DNA of 64,000 bases from the human T2T-CHM13v2.0 reference genome, Homo sapiens (GCF_009914755.1 NC_060942.1), one strand, 5' to 3'. Shown: positions 42,901-52,325, counted from the stretch's first letter. The notes: a model not told the origin generated them from the sequence alone. Translations and numbers: made by a program.

Positions 42901-43081
42901 ATGCAGGTAGAGAAAGAGGCTCTTTCAGTGCAGCAAATGCACAATTCTGCTTTGATGCCTTTAAAGAAATTAGCTATGGCCACGCAACTGAGAATCTCTT
43001 CTTTTGTCCCTTGACTCTCCTGTCTCCTTGGCTGTGGGGCTTTTTGGAGCCAGAGGCAACAGTGCATCTCACATGGAGAAG
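42901..43081 (+). pseudogene. Pseudo-serpin exon 2 equivalent
   Basis: Acceptor ttgtattccag ends 42900. Codon-1 position (42915) is AGA, not ATG. Reads GSFSAANAQFCFDAFKEISYGHATENLFFCPLTLLS/(1-nt deletion ~43026)/LAVGLFGARGNSASHMEK|gtgcat. Confidence 0.93.
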
Positions 43082-43266
43082 GTGCATCACAACACACTTT
43101 CAGTCATGTCTAGAGGACAATCAGGTTACAATTTCAAACACTGTCATGATATGGAGATTTTATAGATGCTGGACTCTGTAAACACAAGAGAAGGTCCACT
43201 CTCGCCTAAAGTTTCCTAGGAAATTGCCTCCCTCAAAAAAGGGTGTAAAAGGTAAGAGTGTCCATA

Positions 43267-43567
43267 GGCCGGGCGCGGCGGCTCACGCCTGTAATCCCAG
43301 CACTTTGGGAGGCCGAGGTGGGTGGATCACAAGGTCAGAAGATTGGGACCATCCTGGCTAACATGGTGAAACCCCGTCTCTACTAAAAATACAAAAAAAT
43401 TAGCCAGGCGTGGTGGTGGGCACCTGTAGTTCCAGCTACTCGGGAGACTGAGGCAGGAGAATGGCGTGAACCCGGGAGGCGGAGCTTGCAGTGAGCCGAG
43501 ATCATGCCACTACACCTCAGCCTGCGCAACACAGCGAGACTCCGTCTCAGGAAAAAAAAAAAAAAAA
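43267..43567 (+). mobile_element. AluY-like SINE in the pseudogene intron
   Basis: TSD agtgtccata at 43257-43266 and 43569-43578. Confidence 0.93.
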
Positions 43568-44332
43568 CAGTGTCCATAGCTCTCTTCTGTGGAGCAGTCG
43601 AAGAAGGGATAGCCGAGGCTGGAAGGAGGAGACACACTCAATGATGCCAACCAGGCCCATGGAAAATTGGGAGTCCCCACCTCCATCCCTTCCTGTACAT
43701 TCTTAGCTACCAAGTGCCATCCTGGTGTAAGTCAGCATCCCAAGATGCTTCCTAAAATTCGGGCCCCTTTAACCTCCTTTCTTCTACTTCCTCTTATGTG
43801 ATCTGTTTTCTCAAAACACAATCTAGGTGCCAGGTGGACTGAAATTAATGTGTTTTAAGACACAAGTGGATAACTCAAGTCAGATGATAAGTATACAATA
43901 TTCAGGATTGTGCTGAATTGTGCTCTGTGCATAGTAAATGACCAGTGCCTCTAGCACCCAGCGCTAAGGAGGCTTTACAAAACTATTTTTGCCCATTGAC
44001 TCAATAATTGCTGGATGAATAAACAAATGACTATAGATCACATAAAGAATATTTCATAAGGCTTCTGTCCCCAAGAGGCTTATAATCTAATGAAAGAATT
44101 TACAATCTTCTAAGGGTAAATAGTACTGCAACTCAATTGAGAATTTTAGGTGAGTGGAGAAAATATTTCTTAGTAGGGATCTTTCCATTTGCCTTAATTA
44201 TCTCTCTATTTTAGAGGGGATAATTAACTAATGGAACAAGCCTTCTCCCAATTTGGGTTTTAAACTGGAAGTTAATTGAGAAGCTGTAGTCTAACACGGA
44301 ATTTAATGTTATTTTTAAAAACAAGAAAAATT

Positions 44333-44640
44333 GGCCAGGCCTGGTGGCTCACGCCTATAATCCCAGCACTTTGGGAGGCTGAGGCAGGTGGATCACTTGA
44401 GGTCAGGAGTTCGAGATCAGCCTGGCCAACATGGTGAAACCCCGTCTTTACTAAAAATACAAAAATTAGCCGGGCATGGTGGCAGGCGCCTATAATCCCA
44501 GCTACTCAGGAGGCTGAGGAAAGAGAGTCGCTTGAATCTGGGAGGCAGAGGTTGCAGTGAGCCGAGATTGTGCCATCGCACTCCAGCCTGGGGGACAAAA
44601 GCAAGACTTCGTCTCAAAAAAAAAAAAAAGAAAAGAAAAG
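44333..44640 (+). mobile_element. AluS-like SINE
   Basis: Full Alu with A-tail. Confidence 0.9.
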
Positions 44641-45219
44641 AAAGAAAAATTAAATGTTAAGGCTGTTGTGTTCCATTTTTTTCTCTTTGCGTGCATTAGA
44701 AGAATAGCTCCTGAGTGACTCACCCATAATATGTGTTTGGTAAGTATATATATGTGGAGATGGAGACATAGTTGAGAATGAGGAAGCTGTGGGAATCTTT
44801 ACAATCATCTTGGGATGTGGATGCATAGGGTAGAATCCCTCTGTCCTCACCCGCTTTCTTCAACGTGAGAGACTGGCTGGCCGCCTTGGCTGCACTTGTG
44901 CTGCCTCAGGTTTTGCAACCAGAGATATGGTGTGGGCTGCAGTGCTGCGGGCACAAGTCAGACAGAGAGTCTGGAGTGGAAATAATTATTTGTCTCTGAC
45001 AGCCAAGCTGACCGAGTAAGAACAGAATCAAATCAAACTTTTCCTTCTCTTCTTCCCATACAAAAATGAAGAAGAATTCTCATATTTTTCCTCTTAATGA
45101 TTCTTCCCCCAAAACATTCAGAGATTGAGCCAAATGCTTAGAATTGCAGGCTTAATAATTGCACTTTTCTTTTGATGATGGCGGTAATGGAAATGATGAT
45201 AATGAGGATGATGATGGAA

Positions 45220-45238
45220 GCAACACCAGGGGGCGCCA
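45220..45238 (+). promoter_or_regulatory. Candidate CTCF-binding site
   Basis: gcaACACCAGGGGGCGCCA has one mismatch to the CCACCAGGGGGCGC core. Confidence 0.55.
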
Positions 45239-49558: not shown

Positions 49559-50115
49559 TATTATGAATAATGCTGCTGTGAATATTCCTGTAAAAGGCTT
49601 TTTGAGTACATATTCTTTCACTCCTGTTAAATAAATATCTACTAGTGGAATTGCTGGGTCATAGGGTACATGCAAATGTACATGTAAGAAAATATGCTAG
49701 ATTTTCTCAGAAGATTTTGTCTTTTATTTTACATTTGAGTTTTTGCTCCATGTCATTATTATTAGTCAAGGATTTTACTGAAGGTAGAAAAACAAAGACA
49801 CATTAACAGTATAACATTTATTAACAGTATGACAAGAAAATTTCATCCACAATTTTGCATGTTTCTATAAAATAGATAAATAGGCTATACACTCACTTTC
49901 TTTTCTTCTGCATCTTCCACATTCCTTGTCCATTATATAATTGGGAATGCTTTACATATTTGCTCAAAAGTCTTGTTTTTGGTTCATATGAAGATATCTG
50001 GTGTTAATTATATATGCCAGTTAAAAATAGATCTAAAGTCAAAACAAAACCAGTGAAAATAATTCATATTCAATTGTTGATTAAGTATGGTCTTGCTTTG
50101 TTTCACTTCCCACGG

Positions 50116-50258
50116 GTGAAATCTAGGATCTCTTATCACCCCACAGCCTCATATCTCCCAATCAGCTGGTGTTGGTTAATGCCATCTCCTTCAGAGAGAA
50201 CCAGAAAAATGCACTTCAGAAAGACCAAACAAAAGCAATGGCTTTCACGTTGGATGAG
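50116..50258 (+). pseudogene. Pseudo-serpin exon 6 equivalent (143 nt)
   Basis: (G)EI*DLLSPHSLISPNQLVLVNAISFRENQKNALQKDQTKAMAFTLDE|gtggtc. TAG at 50124-50126; acceptor cag changed to cgg; exact 143-nt phase 1/0 size. Confidence 0.92.
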
Positions 50259-50611
50259 GTGGTCTCATGTAGTCTCATGGCTTAATTTGTTTATCTCTTA
50301 AAAGTAATCCTCAAAATTTTTGTCCTTAAGAACTGCTAAATTATTTCTGGCCTTAGGGAAGCAAATTAATTTCCAAGTGGCTATCCTAGCTACATTTGCA
50401 ATAAAAAGCAGATTTTGATTTATAAAATATTTATTTTTTTGTTGAACCTTTCTTTAAAATTTTCCACTGTTTTTTACCCTGTATAAAAATAGAAATTCTA
50501 TTTTAGCAATGCAGTTGTACAATTGAAAAATGCTATGAAATATAGACTTTGAAAGTATTTAAAATAAGTCTTGGTTAAGACCACTTAAACTATTATCAAG
50601 CCACTTACCTC

Positions 50612-51140
50612 TTGCTAACTGGAAATAAGGTCAGGCAATAGAAAATAACAGCAAGAGACAACTGAGGAACTAACAGGCAAATCACTTCTTTTAAAATTAT
50701 ACTTTAAGTTCTGGGATACATGTGCAGAATGTGCAGGTTTGCTACCTAGGTATACATGTGCCATGGTGGTTTGCTGCACCAGGCAGGTCACTTCTAAAAT
50801 GAGTTTGATCTCCCTACAAAGCCAAGCTGAACTGGTGAACAAAATGCACAGTCAAGGTGGAAGGTTCTAGGCTTACTGCCCTTCTACTTAGCACCCTCAG
50901 CCTTCCCAACTTTTCTAAGTGTCAAAAATGTCCCAAATATCAGGCCACAACCAAAATAAGACATGTTATTTAACAAGAAAGAATTGATCTGTATATAATA
51001 ACTAAGCCACTGTGCTATCAAATGCATTTATTCCAGCCCACCAAGGAATGCTTGAAATTACAAGTAAATTTAAAATTTGTTCTTGTCAACTGTAAGAATA
51101 GACTTTCTATTTCTGAATAAATACTTTTCATATAAAATAA
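50612..51140 (+). repeat. Copy 2 of the duplication, with a short L1 insertion
   Basis: Matches copy 1 except for a ~90-bp insert at 50690-50779. Confidence 0.92.
50690..50779 (-). mobile_element. Very short 5'-truncated L1PA 3' end
   Basis: ttatactttaagttctgggatacatgtgcagaatgtgcagg...tttgctgcac; imperfect TSD caggcaaatcacttct / caggcaggtcacttct. Confidence 0.88.
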
Positions 51141-52168
51141 GTAGTAAATTAAGGAGAAACATAAACCTCTAGCCAAACACATTAGTCATATCTGGAAGTA
51201 TGTAGTAATGCCCTTACAAAGAATATTACCATCACATTCACATTTTGAGGTTATAAAATGAACAATAAATTATATAGATGTTATGGCTGTGATTTTTGAA
51301 AATACAGATTCTAGGGCCACCTTCCTGGGGACTCTGATTTGCATGATGAACTTGAGTATACATATTTTCAAAGAGCCCCTTAGGTCCTTCCAAGGATCAG
51401 CCCGGTTGGGGAATCACAGTATGTAGAAAATGGGCTATTTTAGCAGGATTCATAAAGAGATGCTCAAAGGGGTAAGCATACCCCACAGCAAATAGATTTG
51501 CTAGAGAAAGCAGCTAACAAAACAGAATATTTTATTTCACAGAAAAATCTCATCCATTTGGCTTATATACACAATGCAGGTGTATATACCTGTTAACTAG
51601 CATTTCAAAGATAAAAACATAAAGTATCATTATGGTCATAACAAAATTTCCTTAAAGTAGTCCAATTATGAGAGCTCACCTAGTGCTTTGTCACATTCTT
51701 AGCTATTTTGTAACTCCAGAAATTATCAGAATCAGCTCAATGCTGCTGACTAGTTAAGATTAGTCAGATTTTACTCGAGCTGGAGAGACTTCTAAATTAT
51801 GCTCTTGAAAGGACCTATTTGTCCTTTAAAAATGGTTATCCTGGTAAGATCTTATGGTGTGGGTATTTCCCAGCCCTTTGAAGTGAATTAACTGCATCTG
51901 GAAGTCAAAAAAGTACACCTGAATGAAATTAATATATTGGGGAACTTGAATACTTTGGACTTTAGTAGCAGCTTTGTTTAGGTTCCTCCCCTCTTTATGT
52001 CATCAAAATAACGTTCAATCGTAGGTATTTCTAAAGACGGATGGATGGTTTTCTTTTGCCACCAACTGTAGGCAATTTTGGAGGATGAAAATAAACATAA
52101 ATTTTCTATGTCCTAAATAGCAAAAGAAAGAGATTGGCTTTATTATTTCACTGTTTTTACTTTTGTAG

Positions 52169-52325
52169 TCTCAGAGCAGACCTGTGGAGATGATACATGC
52201 TCCATTTAGCTTTAAAAGGAGGCTCCATTAAGGACCCTCCTTTACAAGTGCTTGAGATGCCCAACGTGGAGGATCACCTGAGTGTGGTCATTGTCCTACC
52301 CAGCAAAGACATCCACTTGGAACAG
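52169..52325 (+). pseudogene. Pseudo-serpin exon 7 equivalent (156+1 nt)
   Basis: ttttgtag|SQSRPVEMIHAPFSFK/(+1 nt near 52214-52217)/GGSIKDPPLQVLEMPNVEDHLSVVIVLPSKDIHLEQ|ataaac; donor GT changed to AT. Confidence 0.9.

What the first reader, a model, noticed from the sequence alone, without database searches (positions are those of the whole stretch)
42915..52325. The fossil serpin may be a mammalian relic of the ovalbumin/OVAX/OVAY (SERPINB14) lineage
Comparisons are with sequences recalled from memory. Chicken ovalbumin coding exons are 168/51/129/118/143/156 nt, against 168/51/126/?/143/156 for the relic. SERPINB7 shares the 51-nt exon but not 129/156; SERPINB11/B3/B4/B13 share 156 but, as I recall, have a longer exon 3. 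Motif matches: FCFDAFKE...HATENLFFCP vs ovalbumin FCFDVFKE...HANENIFYCP; GARGN...MEK vs OVAX GARGNTEYQMEK; exon 4 opening with Cys; TKAMAF vs TQAMPF; SRPVEM...LEQ vs SKPVQM...LEQ. As I recall, the avian ovalbumin genes also lie next to SERPINB2, which follows SERPINB7 in human. An egg-white-type gene fossil in human would parallel the vitellogenin remnants. Caveat: SERPINB11 is similarly close in exon 2, so these may just be ancestral characters of the B7/B11/B14 group.
Basis: inference. Interest (0 to 1): 0.8.

Follow-up and report, generated by a model that had tools for sequence, protein, structure and literature searches.

The report
Dead human copy of "ovalbumin-like" serpin
Between SERPINB7 and SERPINB2 the human genome holds the broken remains of a fourteenth ovalbumin-type serpin gene that looks intact in horses, pigs, cattle, whales, bats, sloths and manatees, and whether it is the true mammalian counterpart of bird ovalbumin stays open.

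Summary
Five collinear serpin exon relics lie on the + strand at 42915-52325: E2, E3, E4, E6 and E7, of 167, 51, 126, 143 and 157 nt. Exons 5 and 8 are gone. The start codon is lost, and there are two frameshifts, one in-frame stop and three dead splice sites.

It is not a decayed copy of a living human gene. Identity to the 13 human clade B serpins is 25-37%. It is the human orthologue of a placental gene that NCBI's pipeline calls "ovalbumin-like". That gene has open full-length models in 16 genera, and the relic is 63-78% identical to them per exon. In zebra the gene sits directly after SERPINB7. In trees the relic nests inside this clade (100/100), next to the colugo.

The ovalbumin link is only partly supported. 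By score, sauropsid ovalbumin/X/Y and SERPINB11 tie as the next relatives. Two trees put the mammalian clade with ovalbumin (95; 90/86). Two put it with SERPINB7+B11 (87/79; 82). AU tests reject neither (p 0.36, 0.42). Most motif matches are generic.

The intact gene has a non-inhibitory loop of its own kind, and it persists in viviparous mammals. It is therefore not an egg relic like the vitellogenin remnants.

The parts
42915..43081 (+). Relic exon 2, the first coding exon: 167 nt. AGA stands where the ATG should be (42915-42917). One base is missing between about 43008 and 43016, which shifts the frame. The donor GT is kept at 43082-43083.
   Evidence: HMM E 9e-8 and 0.0043 for the two frames. 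tblastn with the horse protein gave 78% identity over 36 residues in the first frame and 53% over 38 in the second; the rhino and alpaca proteins gave 77% and 73% over 22 there (E 7e-17 to 4e-15). Borders.
47231..47281 (+). Relic exon 3, the CD-loop exon: 51 nt with the frame open. Acceptor ag and donor gt are both intact.
   Evidence: Found by motif plus acceptor search. 62-81% identical to intact orthologues over 16-18 residues. Borders.
48705..48830 (+). Relic exon 4: 126 nt with the frame open. TA stands at the acceptor position where AG is expected (48703-48704). The donor gtaagt is intact.
   Evidence: HMM E 0.066. 71% identity to the horse protein over 41 residues, E 3e-12. Sequence.
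48831..50115 (+). Interval of 1285 nt where exon 5 (118 nt in all 13 human paralogues) should lie. No trace of it was found, and a masked repeat sits at 49359-49589.
   Evidence: Best exon 5 HMM hits anywhere in 26500-64000 have E >= 0.17, and none lies in this interval. tblastn with 8 intact orthologues gave no hit for residues 115-154.
50116..50258 (+). Relic exon 6: 143 nt. GG stands at the acceptor position (50114-50115). There is an in-frame TAG at 50124-50126 where the orthologues have Lys. The donor gt is kept.
   Evidence: HMM E 1.2e-6. 75% identity to the horse protein over 48 residues. Sequence.
52169..52325 (+). Relic exon 7: 157 nt, which is 156 plus one extra A in the A-run 52214-52217, shifting the frame. 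The acceptor ag is intact. AT stands at the donor position where GT is expected (52326-52327).
   Evidence: HMM E 4.2e-7. 66-72% identity to horse and colugo proteins over 36-38 residues. Sequence.
52326..64000 (+). Region downstream of exon 7 in which exon 8 (about 390 nt, carrying the reactive-centre loop) is missing.
   Evidence: Best exon 8 HMM hit in the window has E 7.5. No tblastn hit for residues 256-385 of 8 orthologues. In the next 48,199 bases up to SERPINB2, the weak hit to the orthologue proteins is a translated L1 and the one exon 8 HMM hit a translated Alu; four further weak exon-model hits (E2, E5) were not inspected.

Best explanation
The stretch is a unitary pseudogene. It is the dead human orthologue of a clade B serpin gene that stood between SERPINB7 and SERPINB2 in the ancestor of placental mammals. 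That gene still has full-length open gene models, named 'ovalbumin-like' by NCBI's pipeline, in at least 16 genera of Laurasiatheria, Xenarthra, Afrotheria and Dermoptera.

On the lineage to humans the gene lost its start codon, exons 5 and 8, and three splice sites. It also gained two frameshifts and a stop, so it can no longer make a serpin. Nothing suggests a present function (inferred).

The intact gene belongs to the subgroup formed by sauropsid ovalbumin/X/Y, SERPINB7 and SERPINB11. The order of branching inside that subgroup is not resolved by the protein data.

Its reactive-centre loop lacks the alanine-rich hinge and is about five residues shorter than in inhibitory relatives. The living protein is therefore most likely a non-inhibitory serpin. 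This is inferred from sequence and has not been tested.
For: Anatomy:
- Five exon relics lie in order on one strand, with clade B lengths and phases.
- The lesions are listed under parts.

Not a copy of a living human gene:
- Identity over E2, E4, E6 and E7 is 70/191 (36.6%) to B11 and 24.7-32.0% to the other 12 human paralogues.

Orthologues:
- The zebra model P0200 (638 aa) is a read-through. Residues 43-294 are SERPINB7, 77% identical to human B7. Residues 296-638 are a second serpin that matches the relic at 71% (E2), 67% (E3), 74% (E6) and 63% (E7).
- Searching with that second half found 22 protein clusters at 52-100% identity. 21 are named, from 16 placental genera; one has no name.
- Summed phmmer scores of the relic pieces are 113-215 bits to these proteins and at most 85 bits to anything else.

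Trees:
- The relic lies inside this clade at 100/100. It is sister to the colugo at 69/81 and 81, as the species tree predicts.

Hinge:
- All 16 orthologues aligned lack the EEGTEAAAAT-type hinge, and 11 of 16 carry NQT in the loop.

Literature:
- The 2013 nomenclature update lists clade B pseudogenes only at 6p25 (passages seen, PMC3880077).
- Kaiserman and Bird 2005 count 12 genes in the mammalian ancestor and give ovalbumin/X/Y 'no human orthologues' (sections and passages seen, PMC1308813).
Against: - The orthologues are automatic gene predictions. An open frame does not prove that the protein is made or useful, and several models are partial or fused (P0200, P0279, P0291, P0294).
- Synteny was shown only for zebra, and only through a read-through model. 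No other genome could be inspected.
- No primate, rodent, lagomorph, carnivore, marsupial or monotreme orthologue was among the 120 rows listed. That search covers only annotated proteins of 350-1117 residues, so absence is weak evidence.
- The date of the human loss is unknown.
- Transcription or regulatory use of the relic was not examined.
Confidence: 0.93

Rival explanations
1. The placental gene and its human relic are the one-to-one mammalian orthologue of the sauropsid ovalbumin/X/Y (SERPINB14) lineage. The split from the B7/B11 lineage came before the bird-mammal divergence, and sauropsids later lost the B7/B11 side.
For: - The mammalian clade is sister to the crocodile+bird ovalbumin clade in FastTree on 162 rows (support 95). 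The same holds in IQ-TREE LG+C20+F+G4 on 58 rows after long rows were dropped (90/86).
- The best non-mammalian identity is to alligator 'ovalbumin-like', 45-46%.
- Among PDB serpins, relic E2 matches only the ovalbumin family at low E (36, 32 and 28 bits); three engineered conserpins follow at 11 bits. For E6, ovalbumin is the best clade B match at 16.4 bits, behind neuroserpin at 19.8.
- The exon 3 segment of 17 residues starts VLHLDELT in the relic and VLHFDELT in alligator.
- The relic is the last serpin before SERPINB2.
Against: - IQ-TREE with the same model on 78 rows puts the clade with B7+B11 (87/79). The 77-row quick tree does the same (82).
- Holding mammal+B7+B11 together costs only 2.3 lnL on the 58-row set (AU p 0.422).
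- The alligator protein is also the nearest relative of B11 (52%), B1 (51%) and B3 (50%). Its closeness therefore reflects slow evolution, not kinship.
- The mammalian stem branch is long, 0.65-0.70.
- The motifs are generic or private to the relic.
Confidence: 0.42
2. The placental gene is a mammal-only paralogue. One ancestral gene next to SERPINB2 gave ovalbumin/X/Y in sauropsids. In mammals it gave three genes by tandem duplication: B11, B7 and the 'ovalbumin-like' gene. Ovalbumin is then co-orthologous to all three, and the relic has no special claim to the name.
For: - The 78-row careful tree gives (B7,B11) at 98/89, plus the 'ovalbumin-like' clade at 87/79, with the sauropsid clade outside. 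The 77-row quick tree gives the same arrangement (82).
- It needs no gene loss in sauropsids.
- No marsupial or monotreme orthologue appeared.
- The three genes are neighbours on the chromosome (hub annotation; relic coordinates).
Against: - The opposite topology appears.
- Holding mammal+ovalbumin together costs 4.9 lnL (AU p 0.364).
- A stem of 0.65 changes per site is very long for a young duplicate unless evolution was strongly accelerated. Crown branches in the clade are about 0.1-0.2.
Confidence: 0.45
3. The relic is a decayed recent duplicate of a living human gene (SERPINB11, B7 or B3/B4), or a chance resemblance.
For: SERPINB11 is the nearest human paralogue at 36.6%.
Against: - 36.6% to B11 compares with 63-78% per exon to the horse and colugo orthologues.
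- The relic sits inside the placental clade at 100/100.
- Five exons lie in order, with E down to 1e-17.
Confidence: 0.01

Closest known systems
Placental 'ovalbumin-like' gene models (NCBI/UniRef predictions, e.g. Equus przewalskii P0271, Diceros P0272, Galeopterus P0276, Sus P0277, Trichechus P0282)
   Same: - Same gene lineage. Identity to the relic is 63-78% per exon.
- Segment lengths are identical, 56/17/42/-/48/52 residues.
- Same place after SERPINB7 in zebra.
- The relic nests in their clade.
   Different: These models are open and full length (about 385 aa). The human copy lacks exons 5 and 8 and carries seven further lesions. I found no paper describing these genes.
Sauropsid ovalbumin, ovalbumin-related proteins X and Y (SERPINB14, B14B, B14C) and crocodilian 'ovalbumin-like'
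   Same: - Both are 8-exon clade B genes.
- Segment lengths are 56/17/43/39/48/52, against 56/17/42/39/48/52 in the mammalian gene.
- They are the best non-mammalian hits.
- They are sister to the mammalian clade in two of four trees.
   Different: - Identity is only 38-46%.
- The sister relation is not stable.
- Crocodilian members keep an inhibitory hinge, and bird ovalbumin lost it in a different way from the mammalian gene.
- Egg-white expression is known for the bird genes only (PMC3682532, passages seen).
Human SERPINB11 and SERPINB7
   Same: - They are chromosomal neighbours in the same subgroup.
- B11 is the nearest human paralogue.
- B7 shares the 51-nt exon 3.
- They are sister to the mammalian clade in two of four trees.
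   Different: - Identity to the intact orthologues is 38-40%.
- B11 has a 60-nt exon 3, and B7 has exons 4 and 7 of 117 and 147 nt.
- Both keep a near-canonical hinge.
Vitellogenin gene remnants in mammals
   Same: Both are dead remnants in the human genome of genes whose relatives are best known from eggs.
   Different: Here the gene stays open in many viviparous placentals, so its death in the human lineage is not tied to the loss of egg laying.

Membership tests
Clade B (ov-) serpin gene | Sequence homology to the serpin fold | tested here: met
   Exon HMMs from the 13 human clade B genes give E 9e-8, 1.2e-6 and 4.2e-7. The intact orthologues carry PF00079.
Clade B (ov-) serpin gene | Conserved exon lengths and intron phases of the 8-exon type (168/variable/about 129/118/143/about 156/about 400) | tested here: met
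   The relic reads 167(168-1)/51/126/missing/143/157(156+1)/missing. This compares with the 13 human genes.
Clade B (ov-) serpin gene | Position and orientation inside the 18q21 cluster | tested here: met
   It lies on the + strand between SERPINB7 (ends at 26475) and SERPINB2 (starts at 108785), in the same orientation as both (hub annotation).
Unitary pseudogene | Disabling lesions in the reading frame | tested here: met
   - ATG replaced by AGA.
- One deleted and one inserted base, each shifting the frame.
- One in-frame TAG.
- Three splice sites lost.
- Exons 5 and 8 absent.

Unitary pseudogene | No living parent copy in the same genome | tested here: met
   The nearest of the 13 human clade B genes is 36.6% identical. 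A Pfam scan of the whole human genome listed only known serpin loci among the 111 of 207 candidates that were scored.
Unitary pseudogene | Intact orthologue at the same place in other species | tested here: inconclusive
   There are open models in 16 genera. Position was shown only for zebra, through a read-through model with SERPINB7. No other genome could be read here.
SERPINB14 (ovalbumin/X/Y) orthology group | Well-supported sister relation to the sauropsid ovalbumin clade, excluding B7, B11 and B3/4/13 | tested here: inconclusive
   - For: support 95 and 90/86.
- Against: 87/79 and 82.
- AU p 0.364 and 0.422.
SERPINB14 (ovalbumin/X/Y) orthology group | Same place in the cluster, next to SERPINB2 | not testable with these tools
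   The human side is met. Chicken gene order is only recalled: the figure of PMC1308813 is not held as text, and PMC1183561 is not held. In any case this would not separate the two rival histories.
SERPINB14 (ovalbumin/X/Y) orthology group | Shared derived non-inhibitory hinge | tested here: not met
   Crocodilian members keep EEGTEAAAATG. Bird ovalbumin and the mammalian gene depart from it in different ways, and only the mammalian loop is five residues shorter.

The most novel reading that the evidence does not exclude
The relic is the human remnant of the true mammalian orthologue of the ovalbumin gene. On this reading the ovalbumin lineage is older than the bird-mammal split. It lived on in placental mammals as a non-inhibitory serpin of unknown role, and it was lost independently in primates and several other orders. 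The textbook statement that ovalbumin has no mammalian counterpart would then be wrong, and the ancestral job of ovalbumin could be studied in horse, pig or cattle.
Probability: 0.4. Interest if true: 0.65.

Novelty: new member of a known kind. Interest (0 to 1): 0.5.

Why it matters
The standard account of clade B serpin evolution has three parts. It counts 12 genes in the mammalian ancestor. It calls the 18q21 locus 'identical between mammals' apart from B3/B4. It gives ovalbumin/X/Y no human orthologue (PMC1308813; repeated in PMC3682532).

This locus shows a further gene that was present in the placental ancestor. It is still open in many orders and dead in humans. It adds a unitary pseudogene to the human serpin list. 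It gives a named candidate for the mammalian relative of ovalbumin. It also points to a non-inhibitory serpin in livestock species whose function nobody seems to have studied.

The novelty is modest. Annotation pipelines already predict the intact genes, and the deep orthology question stays open.

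Tried and rejected
- A word-indexed protein search with relic exon 2 found only the window's own ORF.
- PDB sequence searches with relic E4 and the second part of E7 found nothing at E <= 10. A per-exon ranking against solved structures was therefore possible only for E2 and E6.
- Exon 8 and exon 5 were sought with human exon HMMs and with 8 intact orthologues, in the window and in the next 48 kb. 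One weak orthologue-protein hit (extension 22633-22761, about window-equivalent 86633-86761) and one weak exon 8 model hit (92344-92631) turned out to be L1 and Alu translations.
- A weak exon 2-like hit at 28077-28199 is a low-complexity Leu/Phe/Ser-rich ORF. I dismissed it as chance.
- Exon lengths do not work as rare characters. They do not separate the rival histories: 17-residue exon 3 segments occur in ovalbumin, OVAY, alligator, B7 and the mammalian gene, and 52-residue exon 7 segments occur in all but B7.
- I wanted the taxa of the unnamed cluster representatives that branch near B7/B11 (P0106, P0114, P0122, P0123). The Atlas did not hold P0114. For P0122 it gave only 'Chordata'.
- The notes of earlier sessions were closed.
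- Two papers that may bear on the question are not held: Benarafa and Remold-O'Donnell 2005 and Da Silva 2019.
- I did not finish the careful search on the 77-row set. Only its quick tree is reported.

Full report
**What is in the sequence.**
The window is human chr18 (T2T-CHM13) and covers SERPINB7 and the gap towards SERPINB2. At 42915-52325, five pieces of a clade B serpin gene lie on the + strand in gene order.

To test them I assembled the 13 human clade B genes from the held human genome. All 13 of 13 gave open proteins, with lengths equal to those I recall for SERPINB1-13. The exception is one in-frame stop in this assembly's SERPINB11. I built one HMM per exon and ran these over 2568 ORFs of window 26500-64000. 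The results were:
- E2: E = 9e-8 and 0.0043, in two frames.
- E6: 1.2e-6.
- E7: 4.2e-7.
- E4: 0.066.
- Nothing for E3, E5 or E8.

E3 was then found by its acceptor and opening motif. The borders are:
- E2 42915-43081 (167 nt).
- E3 47231-47281 (51 nt).
- E4 48705-48830 (126 nt).
- E6 50116-50258 (143 nt).
- E7 52169-52325 (157 nt).

**How it is broken.**
- AGA stands at the start codon.
- One base is missing in E2 and one A is extra in E7.
- A TAG replaces a Lys codon in E6.
- The E4 and E6 acceptors read TA and GG.
- The E7 donor reads AT.
- Exons 5 and 8 are absent.

Exon 8 carries the reactive-centre loop. I sought it with the human exon HMM and with eight intact orthologues, in the window and in the following 48,199 bases up to SERPINB2. 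The weak hit to the orthologue proteins there is a translated L1, and the one exon 8 model hit is a translated Alu.

**What it is not.**
It is not a worn copy of a living human gene. Over E2, E4, E6 and E7 it is 70/191 (36.6%) identical to SERPINB11 and 24.7-32.0% identical to the other twelve.

**What it is.**
The first word-indexed search found only the window's own ORF. I therefore made a profile of the last exons of the 13 human genes (A1) and searched it against 1.84 billion cluster representatives. This gave 41,562 hits at E <= 0.001, of which the best 150 were kept.

I took the 31 representatives of 340-460 residues together with the 13 human proteins. Of these, the nearest full-length match to the relic was P0105 at 82/212 (38.7%). 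A partial protein, P0061, reached 37.6% over only 101 positions, and SERPINB11 reached 32.7% in the same alignment. P0105 is 'ovalbumin-like [Alligator sinensis]'. Its best solved relatives are OVAX (485 bits) and ovalbumin (482 and 444 bits), ahead of SERPINB3 (388 bits).

The same search listed a zebra protein, P0200, named 'ovalbumin-like isoform X3'. It is a read-through model. Residues 43-294 are SERPINB7. Residues 296-638 are a second serpin that matches the relic at 71%, 67%, 74% and 63% in E2, E3, E6 and E7.

Searching with that second half returned 22 clusters at 52-100% identity. One of them has no name. The named ones come from Equus, Diceros, Vicugna, Balaenoptera, Hippopotamus, Galeopterus, Sus, Pteropus, Bos, Choloepus, Trichechus, Sorex, Chrysochloris, Rhynchocyon, Tenrec and Elephantulus. 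The next rows are sauropsid ovalbumin-family proteins (289-262 bits), SERPINB12 (281-262) and SERPINB11 (275-262). None of the 120 rows is a primate, rodent, lagomorph, carnivore, marsupial or monotreme 'ovalbumin-like' protein. The search sees only annotated proteins of 350-1117 residues, so this absence is weak evidence.

With these proteins as queries, the relic exons score E from 1e-17 to 1e-10 at 63-78% identity.

In every tree the relic lies inside this placental clade (100/100). It stands next to the colugo (69/81, 81), which is where a primate sequence belongs. The locus is therefore a unitary pseudogene of a gene that the placental ancestor had.

**Is it ovalbumin's orthologue?**
Four trees were built.
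- FastTree on all 162 rows: 1 relic, 13 human proteins, 46 named rows and 102 domains of unnamed representatives. The placental clade is sister to the crocodile+bird ovalbumin clade, support 95.
- IQ-TREE with LG+C20+F+G4 on 78 rows, namely the clade of the FastTree tree that holds SERPINB1 and the relic. The placental clade joins SERPINB7+B11 at 87/79, with the ovalbumin clade outside at 85/32. Holding placental+ovalbumin together costs 4.9 lnL, AU p 0.364.
- Dropping only the relic keeps that topology in the quick tree, support 82. The careful search on this set was not finished.
- Dropping 20 rows gives placental+ovalbumin at 90/86. The dropped rows were the relic, the three fastest placental sequences, SERPINB5, other long unnamed rows and some near-duplicates. 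Holding placental+B7+B11 together then costs 2.3 lnL, AU p 0.422.

The three lineages form an unresolved trichotomy.

Similarity says the same. Summed phmmer scores of the relic pieces are 77-85 bits for crocodilians, 63-83 for birds and 64-79 for SERPINB11. Intact placental proteins are 45-46% identical to the alligator protein and 38-43% to bird proteins. They are about 40% identical to B11, B7, B3 and B12. The slowly evolving alligator protein is also the nearest relative of B11, B1 and B3, at 50-52%.

- The exon-length pattern is real but not diagnostic. A 17-residue exon 3 segment occurs in ovalbumin, OVAY, alligator, SERPINB7 and the placental gene. A 52-residue exon 7 segment occurs in all but B7.
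- The Cys of FFCP is private to the relic. All four intact orthologues aligned have Ser.
- A Cys opening exon 4 is shared with B11.
- GARGN..MEK, SKPVQM and LEQ are widespread.
- The T-x-A-M-x-F motif is shared with ovalbumin. Related forms occur in SERPINB8 and B9.

**Function.**
In all 16 placental orthologues aligned, the hinge lacks the alanine run of inhibitory serpins. An example is TEGGSEFTLTNQTS. The loop is five residues shorter, and 11 of 16 carry an NQT sequon. This predicts a non-inhibitory serpin (inference).

Crocodilian ovalbumin-family proteins keep EEGTEAAAATG, while bird ovalbumin has lost it in another way. Non-inhibition is therefore not inherited from a common ancestor. 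Together with the survival of the gene in viviparous mammals, this removes the parallel with vitellogenin fossils.

**Literature.**
Six full-text searches found no paper on this human relic or on the placental 'ovalbumin-like' gene.
- Kaiserman and Bird 2005 state that ovalbumin/X/Y have no human orthologues and that 12 genes were in the mammalian ancestor (PMC1308813; one section and passages read).
- Heit et al. 2013 list clade B pseudogenes only at 6p25 (PMC3880077, passages).
- A 2022 review notes that Ensembl links ovalbumin/X/Y to SERPINB3/B4, while an older view derives them from SERPINB12 (PMC9363672, passages).
- Benarafa and Remold-O'Donnell 2005 and Da Silva 2019 are not held.
- Supplements were not consulted.

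**Verdict.**
The relic is the dead human member of a real, little-noticed placental serpin lineage, and that lineage is one of the closest mammalian relatives of ovalbumin. That it is the orthologue of ovalbumin is neither shown nor excluded.

Noticed in passing
L038:2881-2883 (G000:C18:63917680-63917682, outside the window): This T2T assembly's SERPINB11 carries an in-frame TAA at codon 90 in exon 4. This looks like the known polymorphic null allele of human SERPINB11. It first broke my exon finder.
   Followed up: partly
P0200 (Equus quagga protein): NCBI's 'ovalbumin-like isoform X3' is a read-through model. It fuses SERPINB7 exons 2-7 to the neighbouring serpin and skips that gene's exon 4. 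It is useful as proof of adjacency but is not a real single protein.
   Followed up: yes
window 42828-43181 (+): A 104-residue stop-free frame across relic exon 2 is held as a 'protein' cluster (P0001) in the 5.8-billion protein library, with 9 member sequences on 61 contigs. Human DNA in public assemblies has evidently been run through gene callers.
   Followed up: no
P0105, P0152, P0156 versus bird rows: Crocodilian ovalbumin-family proteins keep a canonical inhibitory hinge (EEGTEAAAATG or EEGTEAAASTG). Bird ovalbumin, X and Y depart from it to different degrees. The loss of inhibition in ovalbumin would then be a bird event.
   Followed up: partly
placental orthologues, reactive-centre loop: An NQT glycosylation sequon sits in the shortened loop in 11 of the 16 orthologues aligned. 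That is odd for a clade whose members are mostly cytosolic.
   Followed up: no
window 28017-28280 (+): A Leu/Phe/Ser-rich open frame gives weak hits to the exon 2 model (domain E 0.14) and to one orthologue (E 1.1). I judged it low-complexity chance, not a second relic.
   Followed up: yes
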